Origin: a virus
DNA: 39,059 nt
UHGV virus genome: UHGV-0140603
Direction: 5' to 3' (one strand)
The translations under genes were made by a program, and so were the position numbers. The notes beneath the pieces are model-generated. The model worked only from the letters and a program-made list of their open reading frames with translations, did not search any database and had not been told where the DNA came from. This document shows positions 8,065-35,489 of the stretch, in pieces. Every line of letters begins with the position of its first letter. The first letter of the stretch is position 1.

Positions 8065-8079
8065 TTACCTTTCAGGTGA
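8065..8079. promoter_or_regulatory. Near-palindrome TTACC-TTTCA-GGTGA in the tailspike divergent promoter region
   Basis: One mismatch from the TTACC-N5-GGTAA consensus; followed by ttgcaa and tataaat promoter-like hexamers. Confidence 0.4.
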
Positions 8080-8155
8080 TTTGCAAAACGTGCTGGATAG
8101 CAAACAAATTATTTGTTACTGTATAAATATACAGTTATCGTATGGAGAAGATAAG

Positions 8156-8413
8156 ATGCAGCAGTATCACTATCCACTGGAAGACGGATTTACCGAAAGG
8201 ATTCACACGCCGGGAGGCGTCAGATCACTGGTGGAGGGATCGCACTTGATGAAATTACTCCGGGATCTCGATAAGGATGGATTTAATGTCGATGGCCCAC
8301 TTGCCGAACTGACTGCACTGATTAACTACGTCACCAGCTCACAGATGTCTATGCAGGATCTGCAAACACATCTCGACTATTGTGCCGAACAATTACGAAA
8401 ACAAACCACATAA
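8156..8413 (+). CDS. Hypothetical 85-aa protein, opposite-strand insert inside the late operon
   Basis: ATG at 8156 with SD ggagaag; promoter-like ttgcaa/tataaat upstream; terminator hairpin downstream; no recognisable family. Confidence 0.45.
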   Translation: MQQYHYPLEDGFTERIHTPGGVRSLVEGSHLMKLLRDLDKDGFNVDGPLAELTALINYVTSSQMSMQDLQTHLDYCAEQLRKQTT

Positions 8414-8436
8414 AGAAAAGGCCGCAAGAGCGGCCT
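8411..8436 (-). terminator. Rho-independent terminator ending the upstream late transcription unit
   Basis: Stem aggccgc/gcggcct with 4-nt loop; U-run on the minus-strand side. Confidence 0.55.
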
Positions 8437-8455
8437 GTGACATGTCACGCTCACG

Positions 8456-8596
8456 CTATGACAAGCCTATGTACCCTGCTACACCAGATAATATCAAAAC
8501 AACTGCAACAGCAAATTCACCATCGTCAATGATACATTTACGGTTCATAACGCCAAGTGCAACAAGCGCAAACACAACAAGAATAAAAGCAATCAT
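8456..8596 (-). CDS. Small (46 aa) two-helix membrane protein
   Basis: ATG 10 nt after the stop of the upstream gene, SD aaggatgag; MIAFILVVFALVALGVMNRKCIIDDGEFAVAVVLILSGVAGYIGLS; below the ORF-track size cutoff. Confidence 0.4.
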   Translation of the reverse strand: MIAFILVVFALVALGVMNRKCIIDDGEFAVAVVLILSGVAGYIGLS

Positions 8597-8605
8597 TTCT
8601 CATCC

Positions 8606-11080
8606 TTATTGCGGAGTGACATCCTGTGGTCGCCACCAGTATGTTTGGTTAAATTCTTTCTTCGAACGTTGCTCCATTTTACGCAAATAGCCTGGTGAAA
8701 AATACTCCTGCATCTGGTTAAAAATCATGTGATCGAGAGCCGCCTTCAAGTACCAGAGATTCGCACCTGGCATCAGACCTTTCCCCAGCTTCACCAGATC
8801 ACCACCAGTCTGCTCATTCTTTCCTTCCACAGCATTAAGCGGAATGCCCTGAGCTATCTTAACGACATCATCAACAAGGCCTGCCACCGGACCAAGCATT
8901 GACGCCAGGGCACCGCTGCCATATCTGGTGTGATCTGAAAGAAGAAAATCACCATACAGGCCAAGCCCACCACCTTTCAGTAGCGCACCAAGCCAGAATT
9001 TTGCGGCATCATCACCGGTCATATCACGCGGATTCCTGCCTGATGCCATATCGTTTAACTGCTGCGAAAGCGCGCCAAGGATGGTTGTACTGGCGATAAA
9101 CGTCGCAATGTATGCCGCACGCCCACCGGCAGACGGCATTCCCATGGCGCGTGACCAGTGACGCATGACAACGGAGATCGGAAACGACTTAAACAGGAAT
9201 ACGCTACGGGTTAGTTCTCCCTTCCATGTCCCACGCTGGATGCCTGAACCGGTAACCATCTGCTCACGCGCACCAGGAGTGATGACCGCCATATCCACTT
9301 CTTCGGTCACCGCCCCGAGCAACTTGCGCATCGCTTCAAACTTCACGCGCTCTGGTGCTCCGAGATGCTCTACAGCAGCATCAGGAATACGCATGATGCT
9401 TTCCGGCGTCAGCATCGTGTTGTTGCCTTTCCCCCAGTCCTCCTGTTGCGCCAGTTTCCACACGCTCCAGTCTGTGTCAGTAATCCCTTTGCTTTTCAGG
9501 ATACGAAAATCAGAATCATCGAGGCTACGAAGGTCTGGTGTCCGTGACACTACTTCTCCCAGGCTTCCCATCATGGTTACGCCATAGGCGCGCTTGTGCG
9601 CATCTGACCATGCTGTAAGCCCACTGGCACGCATTACCGCCGTTGCCGCCCAACGAGACACAGACGGCCCCATATTATCCATCGCCCAGCGGTTAACGCT
9701 ACCAAGTAGAGATTCCATCGCCAGACCAGTGCGGCGCGCCCGCGCAAGCTCAGTACGGTTCGTTGGGTCCATAGCTTCAAGCTGGTTACGGAATAACTGG
9801 TTCATTGGAAGGTTGGTCACCTTCGCAGACAGATACATGGTTCCAAGATCAGAGAACGATGACAGCAACGCGGAGCCGAGTCGGCTGGCAACCAGCCAGT
9901 TGCGGATATTGTCAGACCAGCGTGCGATGTGCGGATTCGCTACAGGCTGTGTCTTTCCGGAAATAAAGTTGTACAGATTCTCTGTGTTGTTCCCCAGGCG
10001 CTCGACGCTACCGGTTTTACTCGGGTTAGCTGTTGCCGTTTCTGCCTTCACCTGATCAAGAAGGGAACGGAAAACATGATCGGGGTTTGGACCATATGTT
10101 TCCACCAGAGCAATATCTTTACTAATCCCTTCCAAGTGGCCGACCATGATTTCCCATAGAGAGCGATCGCCATAAAGTTGCTGATATTGCAGATAGGAAT
10201 CTGCATCTTTGAAATGTATCTGTCGTGATGCATTACCACGGTTAGCACGTGCGCCGGAAATTCGCATTCCGGTATCAGTAAGTTTATTCAGCCCACCAGT
10301 AGCGATCGTGTTATAAGCCTCTCCAAGAAATGCAGACAACTCGGCATCGTTCATCAGTTGTCCATCGGCTCGGATATAATATTTGCGATCCAGCTTACCT
10401 ATAACATCGCTAACCCACTTATCCTTTGATACCGCCCCAACCTTTTCCATAGAATGATGTTGAGGGATCCCCCAGTTTTCGAGATAGCCAATGTCCCCAC
10501 CAGCATCATTAAACCGGCGGCGCAGTAGATCTGTCACTTCTCTCCACGCCTTAGCACCTTTTCTTGCTTTAGCATTGCCAGTATTTTGCCCTCGCATTTC
10601 ATATACCAGGTCACGCACGCCCGCTTCATCTTCAAACAGGCCAAAAAAGCGAGGATCAACTGCTTCAAATGCCTCCTGCAATTGACTCAATGCATAATCA
10701 CGAGTGGCTTTTGTTCTGGACTCAACAGAGAGGAAATTCGATTTACCGTCTGCATTAAAAGCAATAGTACGGTTAAGAGCGCCAAGTTTCCCATCAGCCC
10801 CTTGATAGCTATTGATAAATTTATCCAATCTCTGACGTGCGGCTATAGTGAGGGCCACACGACGTTTCTTTAATGCCGCTTCTCGCTGTAATTCTTCAGA
10901 TGCCAATTGTGCTGCACGATATAGCCGCTCTGATTCGGAAAGTTGTCTCCACGACATCGGGTCATCACGAGCAATGGAGCGCATATTTCGATAAATGCGG
11001 TCTTCAATGTTCTGTATTTCTCGCGCCGTTAACGTGCGCTGCGCCGCCTGCTGGACCGCTTGTATACATTCCTGTCTCAT
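8606..11080 (-). CDS. Internal virion/ejection protein (T7 gp16-like position)
   Basis: 824 aa, position between core proteins and tailspike in a T7-like gene order. Confidence 0.55.
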   Translation of the reverse strand: MRQECIQAVQQAAQRTLTAREIQNIEDRIYRNMRSIARDDPMSWRQLSESERLYRAAQLASEELQREAALKKRRVALTIAARQRLDKFINSYQGADGKLGALNRTIAFNADGKSNFLSVESRTKATRDYALSQLQEAFEAVDPRFFGLFEDEAGVRDLVYEMRGQNTGNAKARKGAKAWREVTDLLRRRFNDAGGDIGYLENWGIPQHHSMEKVGAVSKDKWVSDVIGKLDRKYYIRADGQLMNDAELSAFLGEAYNTIATGGLNKLTDTGMRISGARANRGNASRQIHFKDADSYLQYQQLYGDRSLWEIMVGHLEGISKDIALVETYGPNPDHVFRSLLDQVKAETATANPSKTGSVERLGNNTENLYNFISGKTQPVANPHIARWSDNIRNWLVASRLGSALLSSFSDLGTMYLSAKVTNLPMNQLFRNQLEAMDPTNRTELARARRTGLAMESLLGSVNRWAMDNMGPSVSRWAATAVMRASGLTAWSDAHKRAYGVTMMGSLGEVVSRTPDLRSLDDSDFRILKSKGITDTDWSVWKLAQQEDWGKGNNTMLTPESIMRIPDAAVEHLGAPERVKFEAMRKLLGAVTEEVDMAVITPGAREQMVTGSGIQRGTWKGELTRSVFLFKSFPISVVMRHWSRAMGMPSAGGRAAYIATFIASTTILGALSQQLNDMASGRNPRDMTGDDAAKFWLGALLKGGGLGLYGDFLLSDHTRYGSGALASMLGPVAGLVDDVVKIAQGIPLNAVEGKNEQTGGDLVKLGKGLMPGANLWYLKAALDHMIFNQMQEYFSPGYLRKMEQRSKKEFNQTYWWRPQDVTPQ

Positions 11081-11085
11081 TTAAT

Positions 11086-12888
11086 TTAACCTCTCAAGAA
11101 ACACGCCACAGCGACATCAAACAGGCTGGAATCCTGTATTGCCTGCTCACTTTCCTTGTTCGCTTCATCCAGTACTTCACGCGCTCTGCGCGATTGTGGA
11201 TTACCATCATCATCCAGCACGGTGATTATCATGTCAGGTGATTCAAGCAGCGAGTCTTCAGCTATACGCAGATCAATATCTCCTGCCGGATCTGCCATCA
11301 TTTTTTGTTCTGCCTGTTGCAATATCTTACCGGGCTCAAAAGGAGCTACTTCGTCTGGCGTCCTGACCTCTGCTGTTTTATAGAATGAAACAGCCTGAGC
11401 ATTAAGTTCACTTTCTGCCTGCTGTCGCCGTGCCAGTTCTGCTCGAGCTTCAAAAAACTGACCTCCAGGCTCGTGCGGTGCCAACGCGTTACGGGAAAAT
11501 TCCAGGCGTTCTTGTGCCTGCCGGATTCGTTGGTCAATATCCCGAAGTCTGGCCTGTTTATCTGATCGAGCACGAGACAAAGCTTTACCGCTACCGGTTG
11601 GCTCTTCTGCAAGAATTTGTGCGCGCTGTTCAGTGAGATTTTCAATAATTCGTTGGCTATTAGCGATTTCAGACTGGTAAACCTGTCTATCGCCACGCGG
11701 CAAAAGCTGCGCAGCCCGTTCTTCAAGCAACCGATTTTCGATAGCGCGCGCTGTTGCTCCATCATCTACAGATGACAGAGCCTCATTAACTGCCTGAGAC
11801 AGCAGATTCTTGCGCCCAGGAATTTCACTGAAAGATGCAGACTCAACAATGCTGGCAACGTCTACAGGTCTCCCCTGGCTAACATCAGACATAGCTTTTC
11901 GCAGAGCCTGAATGTGAGAATTGCGCGAAAGCACGTTGATCGGCACGCCGGGAGAAATATCAATTTCAGCATGATGAGCGGCATTCGCCGCCAGTGCAGC
12001 ATCGACATCAACTGGTGAAAAATTGGGGGTGCTTGTAGCCTCACCGCGAGAGTTAATAAATCTGCCGACACCACCAAACGCCACCCCAAGAACAGCATCA
12101 ATAGCAATTGCCTGTCGATCCAACACATCATACTGGTTAGCCATTTCGCTATAGCCACCATCACGAAGCGTTTTTGCAGTAAGCCCACGCTGTGCCATAC
12201 CGAACGCAATATTTGTACCTGCGGCATAGGCAATATCTGGCGTTGCACGTACTGCTGTTGCTGCGGCGCGTCGCACTGAACTTTCACCCGTCCGCGCAAG
12301 CTGAGCCGCCACACCTTCCGCCAGCGCACCACCAGCACGTAACCCGAGGCTCATAGGGATCAGTGTTCCGGCACCAGCAGTAATACCCTGCACTAATCCC
12401 GCTTCCTGCGCCGTCCTGAAATCAACCCCCTGTGCTGTCAGCCGTTCAAACTCAGAAAAACCCTGTAGCGAAGTTACCGCCGCAGCACCTCCGACCGGAC
12501 CACCGAGCGTTGTACCGATAACAGCCTGCCCGCCCATATCGAACAACCCATAAAGAACCTGCCCGGCGGTTCCGGTTGTCGCGGCATCAGGCGTCAGCCG
12601 CTTAACCTGCTGCTCTGCTAGTTTTCTCTGCTCGGCAATGTATGAAACTGAAGTGTCATTGAGCGAGGTGTTTTCGTTAACAAACTGAGCAATCGGGGAT
12701 ACGATTTTATCCATCCCTGCCCAGAGCAACTGATCTGGCTTTGCCACCAGCCCGGAGTACAAACCAGACAATGCCGCTCCTACAGCATTGTCGAAAAAAC
12801 CAACATCGCTGTTAAAGCCAGCTGGATTTGATGCTGCTTCGTCAAGCTGCTGATTCTGGTTTACTGGATTAAGGCCAAAGTAACTCAT
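11086..12888 (-). CDS. Internal virion protein
   Basis: 600 aa, Gly/Ala-rich N-terminal half, coiled-coil C-terminal half; synteny. Confidence 0.5.
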   Translation of the reverse strand: MSYFGLNPVNQNQQLDEAASNPAGFNSDVGFFDNAVGAALSGLYSGLVAKPDQLLWAGMDKIVSPIAQFVNENTSLNDTSVSYIAEQRKLAEQQVKRLTPDAATTGTAGQVLYGLFDMGGQAVIGTTLGGPVGGAAAVTSLQGFSEFERLTAQGVDFRTAQEAGLVQGITAGAGTLIPMSLGLRAGGALAEGVAAQLARTGESSVRRAAATAVRATPDIAYAAGTNIAFGMAQRGLTAKTLRDGGYSEMANQYDVLDRQAIAIDAVLGVAFGGVGRFINSRGEATSTPNFSPVDVDAALAANAAHHAEIDISPGVPINVLSRNSHIQALRKAMSDVSQGRPVDVASIVESASFSEIPGRKNLLSQAVNEALSSVDDGATARAIENRLLEERAAQLLPRGDRQVYQSEIANSQRIIENLTEQRAQILAEEPTGSGKALSRARSDKQARLRDIDQRIRQAQERLEFSRNALAPHEPGGQFFEARAELARRQQAESELNAQAVSFYKTAEVRTPDEVAPFEPGKILQQAEQKMMADPAGDIDLRIAEDSLLESPDMIITVLDDDGNPQSRRAREVLDEANKESEQAIQDSSLFDVAVACFLRG

Positions 12889-24584: not shown

Positions 24585-24674
24585 ATCAATGACTCCGTAC
24601 GCAATTAAATTATTACCAATTTAACCACATATGATTTATTTATCGTAGATAGTTGACATTTAACGCACAAATTA

Positions 24675-24689
24675 TTACCTTTAGGGTAA
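24675..24689. promoter_or_regulatory. Perfect palindrome TTACC-TTTAG-GGTAA
   Basis: Exact 5+5+5 inverted repeat upstream of the 68-aa ORF and portal transcription unit. Confidence 0.5.
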
Positions 24690-25011: not shown

Positions 25012-25088
25012 GTGGCATTAGCTCAGCTGGACAGAGCAACCGCCTTCTAAGCGGTTGGTCGCAGGTTCGAATCCTGCATGCCACGCCA
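25012..25088 (+). tRNA. tRNA-Arg (anticodon UCU)
   Basis: Acceptor stem gtggcat/atgccac, D-arm gctc-agctggaca-gagc, anticodon stem accgc/gcggt with loop cuUCUaa, T-arm gcagg-ttcgaat-cctgc, discriminator G, encoded CCA. Confidence 0.9.
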
Positions 25089-25251: not shown

Positions 25252-25274
25252 GCCCACTTCAGTGGGCTTTTTTC
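25252..25274 (+). terminator. Second rho-independent terminator
   Basis: Stem gcccact/agtgggc followed by tttttt. Confidence 0.6.
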
Positions 25275-25287
25275 TAGTGACTACTGA

Positions 25288-25302
25288 TTACCTTATGGGT
25301 AA
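25288..25302. promoter_or_regulatory. Perfect palindrome TTACC-TTATG-GGTAA overlapping a -10-like taatat, 32 nt upstream of the 310-aa ORF
   Basis: Exact inverted repeat; -10-like hexamer 25300-25305. Confidence 0.5.
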
Positions 25303-25334
25303 TATGCTGCAAACAAATAACACAAGACCGTGAC

Positions 25335-26267
25335 ATGCTTGACTTCATCCGTGACATTTACGCTTCTTTCCGCCAGACATCTCTTGAAAGAGTGAAGAGT
25401 CCATTTCTTGGACCTTTCGTATTTTCGTGGTTGGGGTTTAACTGGCAGATGCTGGCCGTTATCTTTTTTAGCACAAAAAGTATCGAAGAAAGACTTAGTC
25501 TAATAAATAAAAGTTTCGATGTCGGTGATTATATATTTGCCCCTATATGTACTACTGCTTTGATAGTAATAATCCTCCCACGATTTAATAAATTTATCAC
25601 TTGGGTACAGGATAAACCTAACTCTGACACTGTAGAAATGAGTCTGGCATCTAAAATAAAAATCGCAGAATTACAACAGTCCTTAGCTGAAAATGAAGCA
25701 AGAAAAAAACTTGCCGATAAAAAAGAAGAAAGATTTATTGAGGATGGAATATATTCTCTAAAAGAAGAGTTCAAAAAAACAAAAAATGACCTAGAAAAAA
25801 GAAATGACGATGCAAAAATATTGCTAGAAGAAATACGACGTTTAGAAGGCCAACTAGCAAAGGCAGAGGGTCAATTAAATGTAGAACAAGAGTCAAAATC
25901 TCAGATACAAAAAGAGTTGATTATCGAAAGAGATAACAACCGCACATTAGGCGAACAAATAATAAAATCAACATCAGAATCAAATAAATTCAAAGCAGAA
26001 TTATCTTTATCTAAAGAGTCATATGAAAACACATTCAAAGCATACAATGAATTAAAGAAACGGAATGAAATCACTGAAAACTCAATTAGGCACAATCACA
26101 CTAGATACCCATCATTAATAAAACCAGTAAGTGTTAACGGAGCATATACACTAGAATTTAATAAAGGTGTAGAACTATATTTTGACGAAATCAACAAAAC
26201 ATTAACAACCCAAAAAAAGAGAGACTATAAAACCAATAAGGTTAATGCTCGCAATGATGAATTATAG
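25335..26267 (+). CDS. AT-rich hypothetical protein: hydrophobic N-terminal segments plus long coiled-coil; candidate accessory/defence gene
   Basis: 310 aa; opposite strand to flanking terminase and portal; low GC; several AGA codons; no family recognised. Confidence 0.6.
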   Translation: MLDFIRDIYASFRQTSLERVKSPFLGPFVFSWLGFNWQMLAVIFFSTKSIEERLSLINKSFDVGDYIFAPICTTALIVIILPRFNKFITWVQDKPNSDTVEMSLASKIKIAELQQSLAENEARKKLADKKEERFIEDGIYSLKEEFKKTKNDLEKRNDDAKILLEEIRRLEGQLAKAEGQLNVEQESKSQIQKELIIERDNNRTLGEQIIKSTSESNKFKAELSLSKESYENTFKAYNELKKRNEITENSIRHNHTRYPSLIKPVSVNGAYTLEFNKGVELYFDEINKTLTTQKKRDYKTNKVNARNDEL

Positions 26268-26272
26268 TCACT

Positions 26273-28338: not shown

Positions 28339-28358
28339 AATAACCACCTTGGTAATAG

Positions 28359-28373
28359 TTACCGTTTTGGTAA
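28359..28373. promoter_or_regulatory. Perfect palindrome TTACC-GTTTT-GGTAA upstream of the terminase small subunit
   Basis: Exact inverted repeat between an upstream terminator and the terminase RBS. Confidence 0.5.
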
Positions 28374-28459: not shown

Positions 28460-28801
28460 TCACAATATTAATTTCGTTTCATGCCAGCCTTTAGTCACCC
28501 AGCATTGCGAGTCACCATTACACGGGCATGAATTTACAGGAACTCTCTCGCCGCACTTACCGCAACGTTTTCTGCTGATCGATTTTATACGCCCGCGCAC
28601 GCGTGCATCATCCTGGCGGATCAGTAACGCTATATACTCACCAAATTCGTAAGGCGCACGCCCGGGGCGACGCGTGGCACAGTTACGCTCCAGCATTTCA
28701 ATTTCCTGAGCATCAAGCACAATTTCCAGCTTACGCACACCAGATGCAGCTTGTCTGGCTCTCTGAGCGGCTTTGCGCTCTGCTGCTGATTTAGCCATCA
28801 A
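28460..28801 (-). CDS. Basic protein with C-terminal Cys cluster, candidate late-gene regulator
   Basis: 113 aa; Arg/Lys-rich N-terminus; CGKCGERVPVNSCPC; last gene before the terminator and late operon. Confidence 0.35.
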   Translation of the reverse strand: MMAKSAAERKAAQRARQAASGVRKLEIVLDAQEIEMLERNCATRRPGRAPYEFGEYIALLIRQDDARVRGRIKSISRKRCGKCGERVPVNSCPCNGDSQCWVTKGWHETKLIL

Positions 28802-28833
28802 TATTTACCTTTATCGCGAACACCTTTACCGGT

Positions 28834-29076
28834 TTATCTCCTTTGCATGGCACGTAATTTTTTCAGATGGTTCTCCTGTTCTGTTTCAGCCAGGATCTGG
28901 TGATATTCTCTGTGATCAATGTGTTCGAATAAATTATTGAATTTTCTGATGCACACCCTTCCAGGATAGCCATCCATCCTCTTGAAGAATACTGAGTGAT
29001 CAGTACTACGAATGATTTTTACTGGATAGCCGGCGCTATCGGTGTATATCTGACCACGTTGAATCAGAGAGAACAT
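28834..29076 (-). CDS. Hypothetical small phage protein
   Basis: 80 aa ORF in the accessory region. Confidence 0.35.
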   Translation of the reverse strand: MFSLIQRGQIYTDSAGYPVKIIRSTDHSVFFKRMDGYPGRVCIRKFNNLFEHIDHREYHQILAETEQENHLKKLRAMQRR

Positions 29077-29137
29077 TCGTTTATCCCCAGATAAAAATAT
29101 AGCAATACCAATTACATAAAATACTTCAGGCCAAGCA

Positions 29138-29770: not shown

Positions 29771-30282
29771 GCCGCGTTTCCTTCTTTCTTATTAACAATT
29801 ACACCGTCATATATTTCATTAAGGTGCCCTCTCAACTCCATGCGCCTTAATGCAGATAACATGTAATCGCATTCAACCTGCTTATTTCCAGTAAATGGCT
29901 TATCGTCAGGATTACCCCAACAGCAATTGCCCTTTGGCCACCCATGTACTTTCCGTACTCTTCCGTTAACAACGTGAAGTAATCCCCAGCCAGGTGGTAA
30001 ATCCTCAATTGAAATAATCCCCGGCTCACTAATAAAGAATCGCCAGTCGCCCATTCCAAGAGACGGATTTTTACGAAAACGCTTTTTTCTATCTGCCAAC
30101 AAGTCAGCACGAGAACACTTCGCCTCTATCAGGCATGATGCTGAATTTCTGAATCCCATAGCATCTGGCTGTTCTCCGGTACTGGTTACAGCTATAAAGC
30201 GGTCATGAAAACAAACCTTGAACCCGTTGCGCTTAAGGAACTTGTACGCAATCTGACAGAGTTCGCTGTGTGTTAACGCCAT
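29767..30282 (-). CDS. PD-(D/E)XK-family nuclease (MmcB-like)
   Basis: Motif PDAMGF...CLIEAKCS consistent with D...(D/E)xK. Confidence 0.45.
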   Translation of the reverse strand: MALTHSELCQIAYKFLKRNGFKVCFHDRFIAVTSTGEQPDAMGFRNSASCLIEAKCSRADLLADRKKRFRKNPSLGMGDWRFFISEPGIISIEDLPPGWGLLHVVNGRVRKVHGWPKGNCCWGNPDDKPFTGNKQVECDYMLSALRRMELRGHLNEIYDGVIVNKKEGNAA

Positions 30283-30283
30283 A

Positions 30284-31072
30284 TCACTCTCCTTTCCCCT
30301 GAAGCATGGCGTTGCTCCGCTCTATACCATCCAGCGCGATTCGCAGTGCCTGAATTGTGGTAATGCTATCGTTTGGGGCTATTCCATATCGCTCGAATAC
30401 AGCGATATGACCGCGCATAATCTCAGGCGTAAGCTCTTTGTAAGCATAAGCAAGCGACCCTGATGCATTATCCGGCACTACCGGCGATGGCTGTTTAGCT
30501 TCTAAATCAGCTATTCTGTCAACCACGGCATCGACAGCATCTGAAAAGCCGAACCAGTTGCTCCACTCCGGCCTGTTACCGGTTGCTGCAAAGTACATAT
30601 CATCTAAAGCAGACTCAGCATGGTCACGCTCATTGATGAGTTGCTCTTCGCTTTTCTCCAGTTCAGCAATACGCTTACTTCCATCCGAGATAACACCTTC
30701 GTAATACTCGCGCTGCTCGTTGAGTTTTGATTTTGTCTCCTCAAGCTCAACACGCAGCTTCCCTACCGTTAGCGCAATATCCTCGTTCTCCTGGTCGCGG
30801 CGTTTGATGTATTGCTGGTTTCTTTCCCGTTCATCCAGAAGCGCCAGCACTAATTTAGGGTTGAAAGCTGCGATAAATTCTGCGTTGTTCTCTGCATTTT
30901 TCTGGTCGTCAAAGCCAGGCCATTTGATAATGTCTCCGCAACGTTCATCCCCCGGCGTATGCACCGCATATGTACCAGTGTCCGGCGAGATGAATGCACG
31001 CCATTCGCCCTGTGTTGCCTGTTGCGCTATCTTACGTAAGGTAGCTAATTGTTCGCTGGTAAAAGTCATCAT
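30284..31072 (-). CDS. Ead/Ea22-like protein
   Basis: MMTFTSEQL...ATQGEW N-terminus and coiled-coil centre; shares NAEFIAAxNPxxVLALLDE with the adjacent gene; track ORF starts at 31111. Confidence 0.5.
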   Translation of the reverse strand: MMTFTSEQLATLRKIAQQATQGEWRAFISPDTGTYAVHTPGDERCGDIIKWPGFDDQKNAENNAEFIAAFNPKLVLALLDERERNQQYIKRRDQENEDIALTVGKLRVELEETKSKLNEQREYYEGVISDGSKRIAELEKSEEQLINERDHAESALDDMYFAATGNRPEWSNWFGFSDAVDAVVDRIADLEAKQPSPVVPDNASGSLAYAYKELTPEIMRGHIAVFERYGIAPNDSITTIQALRIALDGIERSNAMLQGKGE

Positions 31073-31455
31073 GGTTGCATCTCCCGTTCTTCTGCCCACT
31101 TCCGAAGCCATTCAATCTCACCATTACGAGCTATCAGCTCGCGACACAGTCTTTCGTTTTCATCCAGCAGCGCCAGCACGGTAGCTGGATTGGCTGCGGC
31201 GATGAATTCAGCATTGGCCTGCTGTTCCATTTGGAAATCTTCATAGAAACGGCTTTCTGGATGCGCTCCTTCAATTCTGCAAATAGGAATATATCCAGCA
31301 ACCTCGCGATGAATTAGTGCATCATCACCATCAAATCGTCCCTCTCCATATTCGAGCGACCACACACCACACGTTGCTTTCTCTGCCTTAGCACGCAATG
31401 CCTGATAGTCAATCTTGCTCACTGGTTGCCTCCTTTGCGAAGCTGCTCCGCACAA
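31069..31455 (-). CDS. Ead/Ea22-like N-terminal-domain protein (paralogous to downstream gene)
   Basis: Shared motif NAEFIAAANPATVLALLDENERL. Confidence 0.5.
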   Translation of the reverse strand: MCGAASQRRQPVSKIDYQALRAKAEKATCGVWSLEYGEGRFDGDDALIHREVAGYIPICRIEGAHPESRFYEDFQMEQQANAEFIAAANPATVLALLDENERLCRELIARNGEIEWLRKWAEEREMQP

Positions 31456-31898
31456 TGCAGCAGGGCGTCCGTCGCTTCTTTCACCGTAACGATGTCGCCA
31501 TCGTCCAGCCCGGCAACCGTCGCGTCCTTAACGAACACCGAGCAAAGGTCATTAAACGCCTGCGCCCGTACTTCAGACAGGAAAGAGTCGGTGGCTGTGG
31601 TTTCGATATCGTTAATTTCAGGAAGAATCTCTTCCCATGTAGCGATATCGCCATTCAAATGCCATCCGGCAATTCCACTGGAGTTATCCGCAACACTGCG
31701 AACAGCTTCAATAGTTTCATGCATTGCCGCATTCTCCGCCGCCAGCGCATTAGCACGCACCAGTTGCACTTCAAGTTGCGTTGCCAAATCGCTGATCAGC
31801 TTTGCCACACTGCGCATATCAACGGCACCACATTCTGCTTTCAGTTCCGAAGCCATCTCATGCCCGGCGGCAACTAACCATTTGATATTACTTTCCAT
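31419..31898 (-). CDS. Hypothetical phage protein
   Basis: 159 aa acidic ORF. Confidence 0.4.
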   Translation of the reverse strand: MESNIKWLVAAGHEMASELKAECGAVDMRSVAKLISDLATQLEVQLVRANALAAENAAMHETIEAVRSVADNSSGIAGWHLNGDIATWEEILPEINDIETTATDSFLSEVRAQAFNDLCSVFVKDATVAGLDDGDIVTVKEATDALLHCAEQLRKGGNQ

Positions 31899-31959
31899 CT
31901 TTACCCTCGCTTATCCACATAACTTATTGATTACATTGATAACTAAAAAGATCGTCGAT

Positions 31960-32304
31960 TCAGAACTCTTCGATGTTCCAGCCACCACCTGCTTTCTTTG
32001 GTTTAACCGTTACCCCGATGATTCGGAACGGATACTGATCTGCGGCGACTTTGGTTTTCACCCTGGCGTCGTCAGTCCAGAAACCTTTCACTTCGTGCAG
32101 TTCCATCTCGCCGGTGGCGAGCATCACAGCGAAATCTGGCGTATAGAACGTGTTATCAGCTAACCGCAGCTTGATACCCTCGAATCGATACCAGGCGATT
32201 TCCCCTGCACGTTTACGCAGCTCAAGGTGCTGGCAATACGCAGATTCTGTTTTGTTCATCTGGCCTGTTTTGAGTCGACCAAGAGCCTGTATCTGTTTTC
32301 TCAT
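31960..32304 (-). CDS. DUF1064-type phage protein (nuclease-like fold)
   Basis: 114 aa; MRKQIQALGRLK...YTPDF...EVKG...DDAR resembles DUF1064 as recalled. Confidence 0.5.
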   Translation of the reverse strand: MRKQIQALGRLKTGQMNKTESAYCQHLELRKRAGEIAWYRFEGIKLRLADNTFYTPDFAVMLATGEMELHEVKGFWTDDARVKTKVAADQYPFRIIGVTVKPKKAGGGWNIEEF

Positions 32305-32307
32305 GAT

Positions 32308-32322
32308 TTACCAATTAGGTAA
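32308..32322. promoter_or_regulatory. Perfect palindrome TTACC-AATTA-GGTAA, 4 nt upstream of the DUF1064 start codon
   Basis: Exact inverted repeat. Confidence 0.5.
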
Positions 32323-32369
32323 TTAAAAACCACATAAGACATGAAATCAATAGATGTTAGAACATTTTG

Positions 32370-32384
32370 TTACCCACCAGGTAA
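32370..32384. promoter_or_regulatory. Perfect palindrome TTACC-CACCA-GGTAA
   Basis: Exact inverted repeat, 48 bp from the previous site. Confidence 0.5.
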
Positions 32385-32421
32385 TCATGTGGGCGTAAAA
32401 AAATGCGCTATCGCGCTGGTA

Positions 32422-33222
32422 TTACTTGATAAATCCTGCCGCCTTTCCCCGCCTGTATTCCTCCATCAGCCACTGCGCCGGTGTTATTCCCCCAAGGGTG
32501 GCGGCGTTAGGCATACACCCGAAACTTCGCCCTGGTGGATGGTAAACGTCTCTCCCTGTGTCCGGAGGCGTACTCATGGGCTCTGGCTTTGCCTGTATGC
32601 TGATCACCGGATCGGGTATCTGCTGTCCGGAAGCCACCTTTTTCGCCCAATCATCGAGCAGCCTGCGCGCGTGTTTCTCAACCTCACTCTCGCTAAGCTG
32701 GCGCTGATACATTGCACGACGGGTATCACATACGACCCAGTACATAACCGGATGCCGCCACGGGAATCTTTCGGGACCACCAGGATATAAACTTTTTTCC
32801 TTGCTGTACCGGTGAAACTCCGCCATCACATCGTCAATGGTGACGCCAAGAACCATCTTGCTGTCTTTGCACCACTTGATGAATTGCCCTGGCGACGGCC
32901 AGAACGGAGATTCACTGGCGCGGGCGTGGCGCATACCAGCAGAAACCTGTTCACGGGTTCGGATCCCACCTTCGGCAAACGCAGCAATCCACTGCTGTTT
33001 TGCAGCGACTTCCTGCTCTGGCGTCTTCAGGTTGGTTACCACTGCCGCCGGAAACAGTTGTTTCAGCTGTTTGAAAAGGGCATCAACAAGCCTCTCTGCT
33101 GACATGTTCACCACGTTGTCATTGTTGGTGTACTGATGCTCATAACCTGACATGCGAGAAAGGGCTTCTCCGTCACGGTTTTGTATCGCGGTAAAAACGT
33201 TGTTCACAAGAAATCCTCCCAT
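32422..33222 (-). CDS. Replication protein P-like (helicase loader)
   Basis: EQVSAGMRHARASESPFWPSPGQFIKWCKD aligns with lambda P EQVNAGMRVARRQNRPFLPSPGQFVAWCRE. Confidence 0.75.
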   Translation of the reverse strand: MGGFLVNNVFTAIQNRDGEALSRMSGYEHQYTNNDNVVNMSAERLVDALFKQLKQLFPAAVVTNLKTPEQEVAAKQQWIAAFAEGGIRTREQVSAGMRHARASESPFWPSPGQFIKWCKDSKMVLGVTIDDVMAEFHRYSKEKSLYPGGPERFPWRHPVMYWVVCDTRRAMYQRQLSESEVEKHARRLLDDWAKKVASGQQIPDPVISIQAKPEPMSTPPDTGRDVYHPPGRSFGCMPNAATLGGITPAQWLMEEYRRGKAAGFIK

Positions 33223-34019
33223 GCTTCAGGGCTGTTCCAGTGCGGAACGTTGTTATCAGGTAATGTTGATTGCTTCTGTCTGCTAATCTGCAGCCGCCTT
33301 GCCAGCTTCTGCTCCCACTGTGCCTGATGGTATGCCTTACCCTCAGCCATCCAGTAAATTCTGAACTCTGCAAGTTCCTGTGCCGTTGGCAGACTGTCCA
33401 GGTAGATCCCCTGCAATGAGCTTTTCCGAAGAAAGTCATCTGATGGCTGCCATTGTTCATGCATGACAAATTTTCCTAATTGCCCTGGCCCACCAGGAGG
33501 AACAAAGTTATTCATCACGGCGTTGTTTGCTCCGGGGTCATGAGGCACAGAATCCCCGCTTTTTGTCCTGCTCTCCCTCTCTTGGTTAAATGACTGGTTA
33601 TATGACTGGTTCTGGATCCCGTTTTTGGGATCATTCAACATCCCGTTTTTGGGATCATTCAACATCCCGTTTTTGGGTATATTCCCGTTTTCGGGAACAT
33701 TACCGTTTTCGGGTTCATTACGTCCTTCTAGGTTGCCTTTAATGTTCCCTTTTTTGGTTATATTAAGAGAGAAAACCCGCACTCTTTTCGTCGCTCCCTT
33801 TCTCTCTCCGGTATCTGAAATAAGCCCCATTTTCATGAGCGATATAAGCCCGGCCTGCACGGTTTTTTTATTCAGGCAAGTGTCTTTAACGAGGCGTTCT
33901 ATGCTGGGGTAGCAGAGGTTATATTCATCGGCTCTGTCAGCCATCGAGAGCAGTATGAGCTTTAATGACGAGCTACCTGGATCTGTCTCCCAGGCCCAAT
34001 CTGTTGCATGTCTGCTCAT
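33204..34019 (-). CDS. Replication initiator (O-like) with internal iteron-encoded peptide repeats
   Basis: N-terminal HTH-like domain; central ENGNVPENGNIPKNGMLNDPKNGMLNDPKNG repeats; directly upstream of the P-like gene. Confidence 0.6.
   Translation of the reverse strand: MSRHATDWAWETDPGSSSLKLILLSMADRADEYNLCYPSIERLVKDTCLNKKTVQAGLISLMKMGLISDTGERKGATKRVRVFSLNITKKGNIKGNLEGRNEPENGNVPENGNIPKNGMLNDPKNGMLNDPKNGIQNQSYNQSFNQERESRTKSGDSVPHDPGANNAVMNNFVPPGGPGQLGKFVMHEQWQPSDDFLRKSSLQGIYLDSLPTAQELAEFRIYWMAEGKAYHQAQWEQKLARRLQISRQKQSTLPDNNVPHWNSPEAWEDFL
33614..33721. repeat. Origin-like iterons (about five direct repeats with core cccgttttYggg) followed by an AT-rich tract
   Basis: Repeats at ~33614, 33638, 33661, 33683, 33702; AT-rich 33730-33775; inside the initiator gene as in lambda ori. 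Confidence 0.6.
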
Positions 34020-34034
34020 GATTAATCTCCGCTA

Positions 34035-34235
34035 TCAGCTTGAATGTTGTGGGGAGGAATTAATCATGATCTGCTTAATCTCAGCCCTGATGCGACGGTT
34101 TGATTCCATGGTGCACTCAACACAGTGTCCGTTGTAAACCCAGCGTTCACTGTCATGTCCGTGCTTACATGGTTTTCCGGTGTAGTAGCGTTTAAGTCCG
34201 CGCTTTGCGGCATCAATACGTGTAATGATTTCCAT
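34035..34235 (-). CDS. Small Cys/His-rich protein
   Basis: MEIITRIDAAKRGLKRYYTGKPCKHGHDSERWVYNGHCVEC; between the Cro-like and O-like genes; track ORF extends to 34298. Confidence 0.4.
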   Translation of the reverse strand: MEIITRIDAAKRGLKRYYTGKPCKHGHDSERWVYNGHCVECTMESNRRIRAEIKQIMINSSPQHSS

Positions 34236-34315
34236 GGTAAGCCCTGTTATTAGTATTGGGATTACGGTCATTTTGTGCTGACACAAAAAAAAGATCAACC
34301 ATATTTGGTTTTTTA

Positions 34316-34330
34316 TTACCCTTAAGGTGC
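34316..34330. promoter_or_regulatory. Degenerate palindrome TTACC-CTTAA-GGTGC after the cro terminator
   Basis: Two mismatches in the right half-site, same spacing. Confidence 0.35.
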
Positions 34331-34337
34331 GAATAGA

Positions 34338-34363
34338 TATGAAAAGACCGCCGGATGGCGGTC
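34338..34363 (-). terminator. Rho-independent terminator after the Cro-like gene (tR1-like position)
   Basis: Stem gaccgcc/ggcggtc, loop ggat, minus-strand U-run. Confidence 0.55.
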
Positions 34364-34385
34364 TACAGAGGGTTGTGGCTGGATA

Positions 34386-34616
34386 TCATGAGTAGAAGAA
34401 GTATGCCAATTCTGCTTTTGAGCGCAGCCATTGTCTTGTTTTACAGGCTTTAAAAAGCCCATTCATCAATACCTTACCTGGCATTTTGCGCTTACCTGTT
34501 AAGTGAGTCTGGATATAGTGACTCGTCGTTCCGGCTTCCTGTGCGAAGGCTTCACGCTCATCCGGAGTAAGTGCAAGCCAGTGCTTTTTGAAATCGAAAT
34601 GTCCGTTATCGCTCAT
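34386..34616 (-). CDS. Cro-like HTH regulator
   Basis: 76 aa, HTH-like segment, divergent from the repressor gene across the operator region. Confidence 0.55.
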   Translation of the reverse strand: MSDNGHFDFKKHWLALTPDEREAFAQEAGTTSHYIQTHLTGKRKMPGKVLMNGLFKACKTRQWLRSKAELAYFFYS

Positions 34617-34652
34617 AGCTATTGCCTGATATTTATTTCAGATAATAAATAT

Positions 34653-34715
34653 TCACCCATAAGGTAACAAAAATCAAGGATAGTTACCCATGAGGTGCAT
34701 TTACCTGTTGGGTAA
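34653..34715. promoter_or_regulatory. Right operator region: three TTACC-N5-GGTAA-type sites between the cro-like and repressor genes
   Basis: Sites 34653-34667 (tcacc..ggtaa), 34684-34698 (ttacc..ggtgc), 34701-34715 (perfect). Confidence 0.65.
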
Positions 34716-34770
34716 TATTGCTTTAAATTGAATCATCTTCTGATTCATATATGAGGCGATTTTCCAGAAA

Positions 34771-35355
34771 ATGAAAAGTATCCAGGACGTCCGCAGGCAA
34801 AATCTCAACGACTTGATCGACCGTGAATTCAATGGTGTTCAGACGCGGATGGCTGAAAAACTTGGAACTCAGGCAAATCTGGTAAACCGCTGGGCTCTTG
34901 GCAAGAAGGTTATCGGCGACCAGGTTGCGCGAAAAATTGAAGCTGCCGCCAATAAACCACGTAACTGGCTTGATATCGATCGCTCGCTTTCTCAGGAGGG
35001 TTTTCAGCCTGTCGGACCAAGCGACATTGGTCAGCTGGCGGCTCACAACCTGGAACGCTGGATGAGCGAAAGCCGCGACCTTTCAACACAGGGAAAACTT
35101 CACCGCGCATCCGGCGTCGCCCAAGTGACAATCAGCCGCCTGTTAAACAATGAGGTCAGCGTTTCCATTTCCACCCTGGAGAATGTTGCATCTGCATTCG
35201 GGCGTCACGGATATGAACTACTGATTCACCCGCACGACCCTGCAACTATCAACTATGACCGCTCGCGCTACGCATTGTTACCTGAAACCGAGAAAGCAAA
35301 GATCGAAAGTTACATTGAATTTGTCATCAACCAGAACGAAAAAAACAAACAATAA
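34771..35355 (+). CDS. Repressor-like protein with two HTH regions and no peptidase S24 domain
   Basis: N-terminal XRE-type HTH, second HTH-like segment ~120-150; no Ala-Gly/Ser-Lys autocleavage motifs. Confidence 0.6.
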   Translation: MKSIQDVRRQNLNDLIDREFNGVQTRMAEKLGTQANLVNRWALGKKVIGDQVARKIEAAANKPRNWLDIDRSLSQEGFQPVGPSDIGQLAAHNLERWMSESRDLSTQGKLHRASGVAQVTISRLLNNEVSVSISTLENVASAFGRHGYELLIHPHDPATINYDRSRYALLPETEKAKIESYIEFVINQNEKNKQ

Positions 35356-35376
35356 AATCATATTTTTCAGTAAGTA

Positions 35377-35400
35377 AGCCGCCAAATGGCGGCTTTTTTA
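35377..35400 (+). terminator. Rho-independent terminator after the repressor gene
   Basis: Stem agccgcc/ggcggct, loop aaat, then ttttt. Confidence 0.65.
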
Positions 35401-35412
35401 TTGTCTATTTAA

Positions 35413-35489
35413 TTACCTTGCAGGTAATTTTTTCAACTCATATCTATTGACACCAAACCAAATACGCATAATTATTACCTCAACGGTAA
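35413..35489 (+). promoter_or_regulatory. Left operator/promoter: two perfect palindromes flanking a TTGACA -35
   Basis: Sites 35413-35427 and 35475-35489; ttgaca at 35447-35452; A/T-rich -10-like region ~35467-35475. Confidence 0.6.

What the first reader, a model, noticed from the sequence alone, without database searches (positions are those of the whole stretch)
8065..35489. Dispersed 15-bp palindrome TTACC-N5-GGTAA at 8 perfect and 4 degenerate intergenic sites
Perfect sites: 24675, 25288, 28359, 32308, 32370, 34701, 35413, 35475; degenerate sites: 8065, 34316, 34653, 34684. Chance expectation for a perfect site in 39 kb is well under one. Three sit between the divergent Cro-like and repressor genes and two flank the TTGACA of the leftward promoter, which is classical operator geometry. 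Others precede the terminase, the portal unit, the DUF1064 gene, the tailspike and the 310-aa ORF. Either the repressor directly controls late and accessory promoters in addition to the early ones, or a second regulator shares the site.
Basis: seen in the sequence. Interest (0 to 1): 0.75.

Follow-up and report, generated by a model that had tools for sequence, protein, structure and literature searches.

The report
Phage repressor operators scattered genome-wide
The repeated 15-bp palindrome is real and is almost certainly the binding site of this phiV10/epsilon15-like phage's lysogeny repressor, placed at nearly every promoter of the genome; equivalent sites are already annotated in the sister phage epsilon15, so it is a well-supported but largely ordinary finding.

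Summary
Observation confirmed. All 13 are intergenic.

The window is a phiV10-like Uetakevirus. It encodes full-length homologues of the structurally solved Salmonella phage SPC32H repressor Rep and antirepressor Ant (PDB 5D50). A perfect LexA box sits in front of ant.

The same palindrome occupies the same positions in phiV10, Tyrion, epsilon15, SPC32H and Klebsiella BUCT711:
- three sites between rep and cro;
- pairs exactly 62 bp apart flanking the leftward and mid-early promoters;
- an 18-bp doublet abutting terS;
- single sites at the portal/tRNA, ant/tailspike and accessory-gene regions.

Across about 70 haplotypes with an identical Rep, the 5-bp arms are invariant and the spacer is hypervariable. 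That is the footprint of a protein that reads the arms.

The deposited epsilon15 record already marks seven such sites as repressor-binding. Direct binding in this phage, whether Cro shares the sites, and looping across the 62-bp pairs all remain untested.

The parts
34771..35355 (+). rep: 194-aa lysogeny repressor, 100% identical to phiV10p40. Reported domain order is N-terminal DNA-binding domain, middle dimerisation domain, C-terminal tetramerisation domain.
   Evidence: Hits PDB 5D50_A (SPC32H Repressor) at E = 4e-42 over residues 1-190. Pfam finds HTH_3 at 106-147 and a weak Cro/YdaS-like HTH at 21-61, with no S24 peptidase. 100% identical to the phiV10 repressor. Domain roles are taken from PMC9986798.
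34386..34616 (-). cro-like gene (76 aa), divergent from rep; it may share the operators.
   Evidence: Matches phrog_35 'transcriptional repressor' at E = 6e-13. 76% identical to epsilon15 gp39, while Rep is only 43% identical.
34701..34715 (.). O_R site nearest rep (perfect, TTACCTGTTGGGTAA).
   Evidence: Essentially invariant in 71 haplotypes.
34684..34698 (.). O_R middle site (2 mismatches, TTACCCATGAGGTGC), 17 bp from 34701.
   Evidence: The homologous site is perfect in epsilon15, SPC32H and BUCT711.
34653..34667 (.). O_R site on the cro side (1 mismatch), lying between the -35 and -10 of the cro promoter.
   Evidence: A promoter-like TTGTTA-17-TATTAT is found at 34670..34642 on the - strand, and a conserved TTGATT lies just upstream in all six genomes.
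35413..35427 (.). Leftward-promoter distal operator (perfect), 19 nt upstream of the -35.
35447..35475 (+). Leftward early promoter, TTGACA-17-AATTAT. The last T of the -10 is the first T of the proximal operator.
   Evidence: Promoter scan scores 10 of 12. Coordinates checked. The architecture is conserved in six genomes.
35475..35489 (.). Leftward-promoter proximal operator (perfect), centred near +1 and 62 bp from the distal operator.
34316..34330 (.). Degenerate operator (2 mismatches) just after the cro terminator, 17 nt upstream of a TTGATC-17-CAAAAT promoter-like element for the replication genes.
   Evidence: The homologue in phiV10 and Tyrion has 1 mismatch.
32370..32384 (.). Mid-early promoter distal operator (perfect), just after the terminator of the replication-gene unit.
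32322..32350 (-). Mid-early promoter, TTGATT-17-TTTAAT, reading into the DUF1064 gene.
   Evidence: Conserved in six genomes. The scan tool does not list it because the second base of the -10 is T.
32308..32322 (.). Mid-early promoter proximal operator (perfect), 62 bp from the distal one, ending 3 nt before the DUF1064 start codon.
28359..28373 (.). terS operator 1 (perfect), abutting a conserved extended -10-like TGnTACTAT.
It overlaps the terS ribosome-binding site and ends 2 nt before the ATG at 28339.
   Evidence: The doublet is conserved in phiV10, Tyrion and epsilon15 and weakly in SPC32H.
24675..24689 (.). Operator in the divergent region between the portal unit (- strand) and the tRNA/accessory unit (+ strand). 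It overlaps the -10 of TTGACA(24653-24658)-17-TACCTT on the + strand.
   Evidence: TTGACA (TTGACC in BUCT711) lies exactly 16 nt before the operator in the window, Tyrion, epsilon15 and BUCT711 (read).
25288..25302 (.). Operator 32 nt upstream of the 310-aa accessory ORF (25335-26267).
   Evidence: The operator and its flanks are identical in E. coli prophages whose cassette is only 80-87% identical.
8065..8079 (.). Operator (1 mismatch) between ant and the tailspike gene.
   Evidence: The homologue is perfect in Tyrion, epsilon15, SPC32H and BUCT711, and the epsilon15 record annotates it as repressor-binding.
8117..8136 (.). LexA (SOS) box TACTGTATAAATATACAGTT in the ant promoter.
   Evidence: CTGT-N8-ACAG at 8119-8134. 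Found in five of the six genomes; BUCT711 carries a variant that the pattern did not mark.
8156..8413 (+). ant: 85-aa antirepressor.
   Evidence: Hits PDB 5D50_E 'Anti-repressor protein' at E = 1.3e-47.

Best explanation
TTACC-N5-GGTAA is the operator of the phage's lysogeny repressor Rep (window 34771-35355). Rep is a homologue of the tetrameric, antirepressor-controlled Rep of Salmonella phage SPC32H. Each pair of N-terminal helix-turn-helix domains would read the two 5-bp arms, leaving the 5-bp spacer uncontacted. The operators sit at nearly every transcription unit in the window: (1) The rep/cro switch has three sites at 17 and 31 bp spacing, one of them inside the cro promoter. (2) The leftward and mid-early promoters each have a distal site 19 nt upstream of the -35 and a proximal site that starts at the last base of the -10, exactly 62 bp (about six helical turns) apart. 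(3) The terS late unit has an 18-bp doublet covering the start region and the ribosome-binding site. (4) Single sites lie at the replication-gene unit, at the tRNA-Arg/portal divergent region, at the ant/tailspike region and at an accessory-gene cassette. In a lysogen Rep would therefore silence early, late and accessory transcription directly, by occluding promoters. A tetramer probably bridges adjacent or 62-bp-spaced operators. DNA damage removes LexA from the ant promoter, and Ant disassembles Rep from all sites at once. Shown here: the sites, their positions, their conservation, their selection footprint, and the homology of Rep and Ant. Inferred: that Rep binds them in this phage, that the promoters are as assigned, and that operator pairs are bridged.
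For: 1. Enrichment: 8 perfect sites against 0.03 expected. 2. Intergenic restriction: 52 of 55 perfect sites in six genomes. 3. The three-site cluster lies between rep and cro, and TTACC-N5-GGTAA is the only palindrome shared by and repeated in that region in all six genomes. 4. Homology: Rep matches 5D50_A at E = 4e-42 and Ant matches 5D50_E at E = 1e-47, with a LexA box in front of ant. 5. SPC32H Rep is reported to bind palindromic DNA as a tetramer through an N-terminal DNA-binding domain, and its C-terminal domain is proposed to have a DNA-looping fold (PMC9638917; PMC9986798). 6. The same motif occurs at homologous positions in phiV10, Tyrion, epsilon15, BUCT711 and SPC32H. 7. Seven epsilon15 sites are annotated 'protein_bind: repressor' in AY150271.2, and their sequences are ATTACC-N5-GGTAAT. 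8. The invariant NLVNRW segment in the Rep N-terminal domain fits the invariant half-site. 9. Promoter geometry is conserved to the base. 10. Spacing is quantised at 18, 48 and 62 bp. 11. Selection footprint: core diversity 0.002-0.008, spacer 0.10-0.34, other non-coding 0.03-0.04. 12. In the near-identical phage ZX5, which has the same Rep, overexpressing the repressor cut endolysin and holin transcripts by about 99.97-99.99% (PMC9782041).
Against: No binding data exist for this phage, and the two primary SPC32H papers could not be read. I therefore could not confirm that the experimentally used operator is this sequence. The epsilon15 annotation appears to be computational. Rep proteins only 43% identical share the same core, so the motif cannot be tied to Rep by covariation. 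Cro, which is better conserved, is an equally good fit on that criterion alone. The promoters for the portal, tailspike and lysis units are not confidently identified, and their single operators lie tens of bases upstream of the best -10 candidates, so occlusion there is uncertain. This window has no site with 0-1 mismatches upstream of its lysis cassette.
Confidence: 0.85

Rival explanations
1. The Cro-like protein (34386-34616) binds the palindrome, either in addition to Rep (as in lambda, where Cro and CI share operators) or instead of it. It would turn down all these promoters during lytic growth.
For: Cro falls in a 'transcriptional repressor' family (phrog_35). It is 76% identical between phiV10 and epsilon15 while Rep is only 43% identical, which matches the genus-wide invariance of the motif better than Rep does. 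One O_R site lies inside the cro promoter.
Against: No evidence bears on Cro's DNA specificity. Rep's N-terminal domain keeps an invariant NLVNRW segment, which can equally explain the invariant half-site. SPC32H Rep is reported to bind palindromic operators. A second conserved palindrome, AACCATATATGGTT, is available as a possible Cro or other-regulator site.
Confidence: 0.4
2. The single sites at the late and accessory units are not promoter operators. They are roadblocks or looping anchors: Rep bound there stops read-through from upstream units (like mycobacteriophage L5 'stoperators'), or tethers distant sites, without occluding a local promoter.
For: Many sites directly follow terminators at module boundaries: after cro, after the replication genes, after the 113-aa gene and before the 310-aa ORF. 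At the tailspike, the portal unit and, in relatives, the lysis unit, the operator lies tens of bases upstream of the best -10 candidates. Rep's tetramerisation domain is proposed to have a looping fold.
Against: At the leftward, mid-early, terS and 24675 (+ strand) sites the operator abuts or overlaps a -10 in a base-exact conserved arrangement, which is classical occlusion geometry. The sites are symmetric, unlike the oriented L5 stoperators (established knowledge, not tested here).
Confidence: 0.2
3. The palindromes act at the RNA level as small hairpins, for example as processing or stability signals.
For: Each site can form a 4-5 bp hairpin. The epsilon15 record annotates RNase III sites in some of the same intergenic regions.
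Against: The hairpins are weak (-2.6 to -3.5 kcal/mol). The arms are invariant in sequence with no compensatory changes, while the loop is hypervariable. Sites occur in both transcriptional orientations and upstream of promoters.
Confidence: 0.02
4. The motif is a binding site for a host factor, or a target for a restriction-modification or methylation system, rather than for a phage regulator.
For: The motif is shared by phages of four host genera. The phage encodes DNA methyltransferases.
Against: A methylation or restriction target would not be confined to intergenic DNA (52 of 55). It would also not show fixed 18/48/62-bp spacing around promoters. The densest cluster is the rep/cro switch. 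I know of no enterobacterial regulator with this consensus, and I did not check this against a database.
Confidence: 0.03

Closest known systems
Repressor-binding sites annotated in Salmonella phage epsilon15 (GenBank AY150271.2)
   Same: Same core palindrome (ATTACC-N5-GGTAAT). Same locations: upstream of terS, upstream of the gp3/portal unit, between gp19 (the ant homologue) and the tailspike gene, the leftward-promoter region, and upstream of the mid-early unit.
   Different: The epsilon15 Rep is only 43% identical. Its spacers are A+T-rich (87% vs 66%). The record marks 7 sites, while I find 11 perfect and 4 near-perfect ones, including the unannotated O_R cluster. The annotation carries no experimental evidence. 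The window also has an extra operator on a cassette absent from deposited phage records.
SPC32H Rep-Ant-LexA lysogeny switch (Kim & Ryu 2013; Kim et al. 2016; PDB 5D50, 5D4Z)
   Same: Full-length Rep and Ant homologues, a LexA box at ant, no self-cleavage domain, and the same palindrome at the same positions in SPC32H itself.
   Different: Rep is 43% identical (N-terminal domain 53%, C-terminal domain 38%) whereas Ant is 88% identical. The primary papers were not readable, so I could not check whether they describe the dispersed sites or the 62-bp pairs. A later paper states that the repression mechanism 'has not been extensively characterized'.
Lambda/P22-type O_R and O_L operators
   Same: Three palindromic operators between divergent repressor and cro genes, and operators overlapping the early promoters.
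   Different: The sites are not confined to the immunity region. The repressor has no S24 peptidase domain and is inactivated by an antirepressor. Distal and proximal operators flank each promoter at 62 bp instead of forming a tandem triple at the leftward promoter.
Dispersed-operator repressors: P1 C1, mycobacteriophage L5 gp71 'stoperators', Streptomyces phiC31 conserved inverted repeats (recalled from established literature, not tested here)
   Same: One repressor with many sites spread over the genome, directly controlling many units including non-early genes.
   Different: P1 and L5 sites are asymmetric, and L5 stoperators act within transcribed regions in an orientation-dependent way. 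Here the sites are symmetric and mostly overlap or flank promoters. The proteins showed no similarity in my searches.
pLS20 Rco: a tetrameric HTH repressor that loops DNA between operators 75 bp apart (PMC9986798)
   Same: N-terminal DNA-binding domain plus a C-terminal tetramerisation domain of the same proposed fold as SPC32H Rep. Two operator regions flank a promoter at a short fixed distance.
   Different: Rco recognises arrays of direct repeats rather than single palindromes, and it regulates a plasmid conjugation operon. Looping by the phage Rep is only inferred.

Membership tests
SPC32H-type Rep-Ant-LexA switch (Uetakevirus) | Repressor homologous to SPC32H Rep over its full length | tested here: met
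   5D50_A, E = 4e-42, residues 1-190 aligned.
SPC32H-type Rep-Ant-LexA switch (Uetakevirus) | Small antirepressor homologous to SPC32H Ant | tested here: met
   Window 8156-8413 hits 5D50_E at E = 1.3e-47.
SPC32H-type Rep-Ant-LexA switch (Uetakevirus) | LexA box overlapping the ant promoter | tested here: met
   Perfect CTGT-N8-ACAG at 8119-8134, ending about 20 nt before the ant start codon. Found in five of the six genomes; BUCT711 has a variant not matched by the pattern.
SPC32H-type Rep-Ant-LexA switch (Uetakevirus) | Repressor lacks a RecA-dependent self-cleavage (S24) domain | tested here: met
   Pfam finds only HTH-type matches.
SPC32H-type Rep-Ant-LexA switch (Uetakevirus) | Rep binds the palindromic operator as a tetramer and is released by Ant | not testable with these tools
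   Known only from secondary descriptions of SPC32H.
epsilon15-type dispersed repressor-binding sites | Same sequence motif as the sites annotated in AY150271.2 | tested here: met
   The annotated epsilon15 sites read ATTACC-N5-GGTAAT.
epsilon15-type dispersed repressor-binding sites | Sites at homologous genome positions (terS, portal unit, ant/tailspike, leftward promoter, mid-early unit) | tested here: met
   Side-by-side regions from six genomes.
Lambda-type immunity operators | Three operators between divergent repressor and cro genes, overlapping their promoters | tested here: met
   Sites 34653, 34684 and 34701. Site 34653 lies within the cro promoter.
Lambda-type immunity operators | Operators confined to the immunity region, with late genes controlled only indirectly | tested here: not met
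   Sites at terS, the portal/tRNA region, ant/tailspike, the mid-early unit and an accessory cassette.
L5-type stoperators / P1 C1 operators | Asymmetric site, with orientation tied to the direction of transcription | tested here: not met
   The sites are perfect palindromes in their arms.
L5-type stoperators / P1 C1 operators | Many sites dispersed over the genome and bound by the immunity repressor | tested here: inconclusive
   Dispersal is shown. Binding is not.
RNA hairpin or terminator element | Stem maintained by compensatory changes; a T-tract for terminators | tested here: not met
   The arms are invariant in sequence and the loop is hypervariable. Folding energy is only -2.6 to -3.5 kcal/mol.

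The most novel reading that the evidence does not exclude
One tetrameric repressor directly silences essentially every transcription unit of these phages: early, replication, virion, tRNA and acquired accessory cassettes. It would do so by clamping promoters between operators exactly 62 bp apart (micro-loops) or on 17-18-bp doublets. The operator arms are frozen across a genus whose repressors have diverged to 43% identity, so that phages of E. coli, Salmonella, Enterobacter and Klebsiella would be cross-immune at the operator level. Only the uncontacted, hypervariable spacer would tune affinity or specificity. Timing of middle and late expression would then depend on a second, undescribed palindrome (AACCATATATGGTT) and an unknown regulator.
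Probability: 0.25. Interest if true: 0.5.

Novelty: new member of a known kind. Interest (0 to 1): 0.3.

Why it matters
It gives phiV10-type phages a concrete, testable operator map: 13 sites with base-exact promoter geometry. These phages are used as E. coli O157:H7 reporter and typing phages. It also shows that the SPC32H Rep-Ant-LexA switch probably controls the whole genome rather than only the immunity region. The conserved 62-bp operator pairs, together with a repressor carrying a proposed looping-type tetramerisation domain, offer a simple system for testing promoter clamping. The invariant arms with hypervariable spacers offer a natural series for studying how uncontacted spacer bases tune repression. 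None of this overturns current understanding.

Tried and rejected
1. Primary literature. The epsilon15 genome paper, the phiV10 paper and both SPC32H papers are not held. No held paper contains the operator sequences verbatim. The ZX5 paper defines no operator.
2. Covariation ('immunity swap') test linking Rep to the dispersed sites. Reps at 43-78% identity all use the same core, so there is no covariation signal. The nearest portal homologue lacking a Rep hit, Sodalis phiSG1, is a P22-like mosaic and was uninformative. A viral-contig scan with a Rep alignment returned only loci with 100% identical Rep; I reused those for the selection test.
3. RNA-hairpin reading: rejected.
4. Methylation, restriction or host-factor site: rejected on intergenic restriction and fixed spacing.
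5. A hidden proximal half-operator 62 bp from the single tailspike operator: the only half-site (TTACC at 8015) is 50 bp away, so rejected.
6. Sigma-70 promoters for the portal, tailspike and lysis units: no convincing -35 was found, so these are left unassigned.
7. A Rep operator upstream of this window's lysis cassette: none with 0-1 mismatches, although relatives have one.

Full report
OBSERVATION
The pattern TTACC-N5-GGTAA occurs 8 times in the 39,059-bp window, at exactly the coordinates given. Dinucleotide-preserving shuffles give 0.03 expected. Allowing one mismatch gives 11 sites against 0.56 expected. At that stringency chance matches are frequent (35 found, 11.7 expected), so those two sites rest on positional homology instead: their counterparts in relatives are perfect or one-mismatch sites. 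With my gene model all 8 perfect sites are intergenic, where the non-coding fraction is 0.081 (P = 2e-9). Over six genomes 52 of 55 perfect sites are intergenic. The three exceptions fall in an over-extended phiV10 terS start and in a doubtful Tyrion ORF laid over the leftward promoter.

WHAT THE WINDOW IS
The window is about 97% identical to phiV10-type Escherichia podophages of the genus Uetakevirus, in the reverse orientation to the phiV10 record. The repressor at 34771-35355 (+) is 100% identical to phiV10p40. It is a full-length homologue of the crystallised repressor Rep of Salmonella phage SPC32H (PDB 5D50 chain A, E = 4e-42). Pfam finds only HTH-type matches and no S24 self-cleavage domain. 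An 85-aa ORF at 8156-8413 (+) is the homologue of the SPC32H antirepressor Ant (5D50 chain E, E = 1.3e-47). A perfect LexA box, TACTGTATAAATATACAGTT (8117-8136), ends about 20 nt before its start codon. The window therefore carries the complete Rep-Ant-LexA switch described for SPC32H. According to papers I could read, that Rep binds palindromic DNA as a tetramer through an N-terminal DNA-binding domain, carries a C-terminal tetramerisation domain of a proposed DNA-looping fold, and is disassembled by tetrameric Ant (PMC9638917; PMC9986798). In the near-identical phage ZX5, which has the same Rep, overexpressing the repressor abolished free phage and cut endolysin and holin transcripts by about 99.97-99.99% (PMC9782041).

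COMPARATIVE EVIDENCE
I scanned phiV10, Enterobacter phage Tyrion, Salmonella phages epsilon15 and SPC32H, and Klebsiella phage BUCT711. Their Reps are 100, 78, 43, 43 and 44% identical to the window's. Each has 13-18 sites with 0-1 mismatches against 0.4-0.7 expected. The sites fall at homologous positions:
- an 18-bp doublet immediately upstream of terS;
- one site between the portal unit and the divergent accessory/tRNA unit;
- one between ant and the tailspike gene;
- one upstream of the lysis cassette (not present in this window);
- a one-mismatch site upstream of int (int lies outside this window);
- a pair at the leftward promoter;
- three sites between rep and cro;
- one after the cro terminator;
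- a pair at the mid-early promoter.

TTACC-N5-GGTAA is the only palindrome that is both repeated and shared in the rep-cro intergenic region of all six genomes. The deposited epsilon15 record (AY150271.2) already carries seven 'protein_bind: repressor' features, at terS, gp3/portal, gp19(ant)/tailspike, three at the leftward promoter, and the mid-early unit. Their sequences are ATTACC-N5-GGTAAT. That annotation looks computational and omits the O_R cluster, but it shows the idea is not new for this genus.

GEOMETRY
At the leftward promoter the order is: terminator of rep, distal operator (35413), 19 nt, TTGACA (35447), 17 nt, AATTAT, proximal operator (35475). The last T of the -10 is the first T of the proximal operator. 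The mid-early promoter on the minus strand repeats this arrangement base for base: distal operator (32370), 19 nt, TTGATT, 17 nt, TTTAAT, proximal operator (32308), which ends 3 nt before the DUF1064 start codon. Both arrangements recur in all six genomes. The centre-to-centre distance is 62 bp in 11 of 12 cases and 63 in one. Over 86 loci, the spacing of neighbouring sites is quantised at 18 (64 times), 48 (83 times) and 62 bp (164 times, plus one 61 and one 63); many of these loci are close relatives, so the counts are not independent.

At terS a conserved extended -10-like TGnTACTAT abuts operator 1 in the same register. Operator 2 covers the ribosome-binding site and ends 2 nt before the ATG at 28339. 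At O_R, site 34653 lies between the -35 and -10 of the cro promoter. Site 34316 lies 17 nt upstream of a TTGATC-17-CAAAAT element that precedes the replication genes.

TTGACA (TTGACC in BUCT711) lies exactly 16 nt before it on the plus strand in the window, Tyrion, epsilon15 and BUCT711, as read. This gives a promoter TTGACA-17-TACCTT that points away from the portal unit, towards tRNA-Arg(UCU) at 25012-25088 and the accessory cassette. For the portal, tailspike and lysis units I could not assign convincing sigma-70 promoters, and the single operators there lie tens of bases upstream of the best -10 candidates.

SELECTION FOOTPRINT
A viral-contig scan returned 80 loci encoding a 100% identical Rep. 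In multiple alignments of their distinct haplotypes, nucleotide diversity was as follows:
- Immunity region (71 haplotypes): operator cores 0.008, spacers 0.10, other non-coding DNA 0.03.
- Mid-early pair (62 haplotypes): operator cores 0.002, spacers 0.34, other non-coding DNA 0.044.
- Coding DNA in both regions: about 0.015.

The few polymorphic core positions lie almost entirely in the weak arm of the degenerate after-cro site. Arms that never change around a freely changing centre are what a dimeric DNA-binding domain reading two 5-bp half-sites would produce. It is the opposite of what an RNA stem would show. The operator in front of the 310-aa ORF is identical, flanks included, in E. coli prophages whose cassette is only 80-87% identical.

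MECHANISM (INFERRED)
Rep tetramers occupy the operators in the lysogen. They occlude the cro, leftward, mid-early, terS and tRNA/accessory promoters, and probably also the replication-gene promoter. The two DNA-binding units of a tetramer plausibly engage either adjacent operators (17-18 bp) or the distal and proximal operators 62 bp apart, which is about six helical turns and therefore on the same face of the helix, enclosing the promoter. The SOS response removes LexA from the ant promoter, and Ant releases Rep everywhere at once. I put 0.85 on 'these are Rep operators', about 0.7 on promoter occlusion at the sites with base-exact geometry, and about 0.5 on bridging of the 62-bp pairs.

RIVALS
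- Cro may share the sites. It belongs to a repressor family and is far better conserved than Rep (76% vs 43%). This is not exclusive of Rep binding.
- The single late-unit sites may be roadblocks or loop anchors rather than promoter operators.
- RNA hairpins, methylation targets and host-factor sites are disfavoured by the invariant arms, the weak folding (-2.6 to -3.5 kcal/mol), the intergenic restriction and the fixed spacing.

COMPARISON WITH THE KNOWN, AND NOVELTY
The element works like a lambda-type operator set at the rep/cro switch. It fails the lambda-type features of confinement to the immunity region and of a self-cleaving repressor. In its dispersal it resembles P1 C1 operators, L5 stoperators and phiC31 conserved inverted repeats, but it is symmetric and promoter-associated. 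It is a member of the SPC32H/epsilon15 Rep system on every feature I could test. The window adds:
- the phiV10-type site map, which the deposited phiV10 record does not annotate;
- the missed terS site;
- the base-exact 62-bp promoter-flanking architecture;
- the invariant-arm, hypervariable-spacer footprint;
- an operator travelling with an accessory cassette that is absent from deposited phage records.

I rate it a new member of a known kind, with interest 0.3.

WHAT DID NOT WORK
The primary epsilon15, phiV10 and SPC32H papers are not held, and no held paper contains the operator sequences. I therefore could not check which DNA the SPC32H binding experiments used. A covariation or immunity-swap test was not possible, because all Rep classes share the core. 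phiSG1 was a P22-like mosaic, and the contig scan returned only identical Reps.

Noticed in passing
window 3872-3883, 8025-8036, 24623-24634, 32328-32339, 34297-34308 (all on the - strand): A second conserved element, YCWWATRTGGTT (full form AACCATATATGGTT, a 14-bp palindrome). There are 5 copies against 0.065 expected. All are intergenic and all lie on the transcribed strand of the late and early-right genes, in the promoter regions of the lysis, tailspike, portal, mid-early and replication units. It is also present in the five relatives, and in Tyrion it sits inside the leftward-promoter spacer. It could be the site of Cro or of the 113-aa phrog_536 regulator, or a promoter element. The scan pattern was written after I had seen these sites, so the enrichment figure is not independent.
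   Followed up: partly
window 8117-8136 and 8156-8413: A perfect LexA box directly upstream of an 85-aa Ant homologue (88% identical to SPC32H Ant). Ant is far better conserved across the genus (85-88% to the Salmonella phages) than the Rep it inactivates (43%).
   Followed up: yes
window 25012-25088 (+): tRNA-Arg (anticodon TCT) on the strand opposite the late genes. It lies downstream of the conserved TTGACA-17-TACCTT promoter that operator 24675 overlaps, so the tRNA may be under repressor control.
   Followed up: partly
window 25274-26272: A cassette with a 310-aa ORF of unknown function (phrog_13369), absent from all 50,697 deposited phage records. It is present at 80-87% identity in at least a few E. 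coli prophages between the tRNA-Arg gene and terL, with its upstream operator and flanks identical in the two examined.
   Followed up: partly
operators at window 32308, 32370, 35413 and their homologues in L009-L088: The 5-bp operator spacers are 3-8 times more diverse than the surrounding non-coding DNA among phages with an identical Rep (up to 28 variants of one site). Possible causes are neutral drift at the only unconstrained positions, affinity tuning, or a palindrome-associated mutation bias.
   Followed up: partly
window 33583-33721, inside the primosomal/DnaT-like gene (33204-34019): Three adjoining tandem-repeat arrays: a 12-bp unit x2.4, a 24-bp unit x2.6 at 100% match, and an 18-bp unit x3.1. 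They look like origin iterons inside a replication gene, as in lambda ori within gene O.
   Followed up: no
window 1-1885: This stretch has no similarity to the attP-integrase region of phiV10. It matches phage TL-2011b (97%) and encodes a DNA methyltransferase (phrog_1277) and proteins of unknown function. The integrase and its conserved one-mismatch operator (TTACCnTAAAGGTAT in relatives) are not in the window.
   Followed up: partly
L001 (phiV10) 41-128; L002 (Tyrion) 34059-34271: Likely annotation errors in relatives. The phiV10 terS start appears over-extended across both terS operators: Tyrion and epsilon15 start at the ATG just after them. Tyrion gp39 is an ORF laid over the leftward-promoter operators.
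   Followed up: partly
window 34629-34652 and 34729-34747: Two other palindromes in the rep-cro intergenic region of the phiV10 group: ATATTTATTTCAGATAATAAATAT between the cro promoter and the cro start, and TGAATCA-N5-TGATTCA near the rep start. Neither is conserved in the epsilon15 group.
   Followed up: no
window 28460-28801 (-): The 113-aa protein encoded immediately upstream of the late operon belongs to phrog_536 'transcriptional regulator' (E = 1e-54) and has no Pfam match. It is a candidate late-gene regulator.
   Followed up: no
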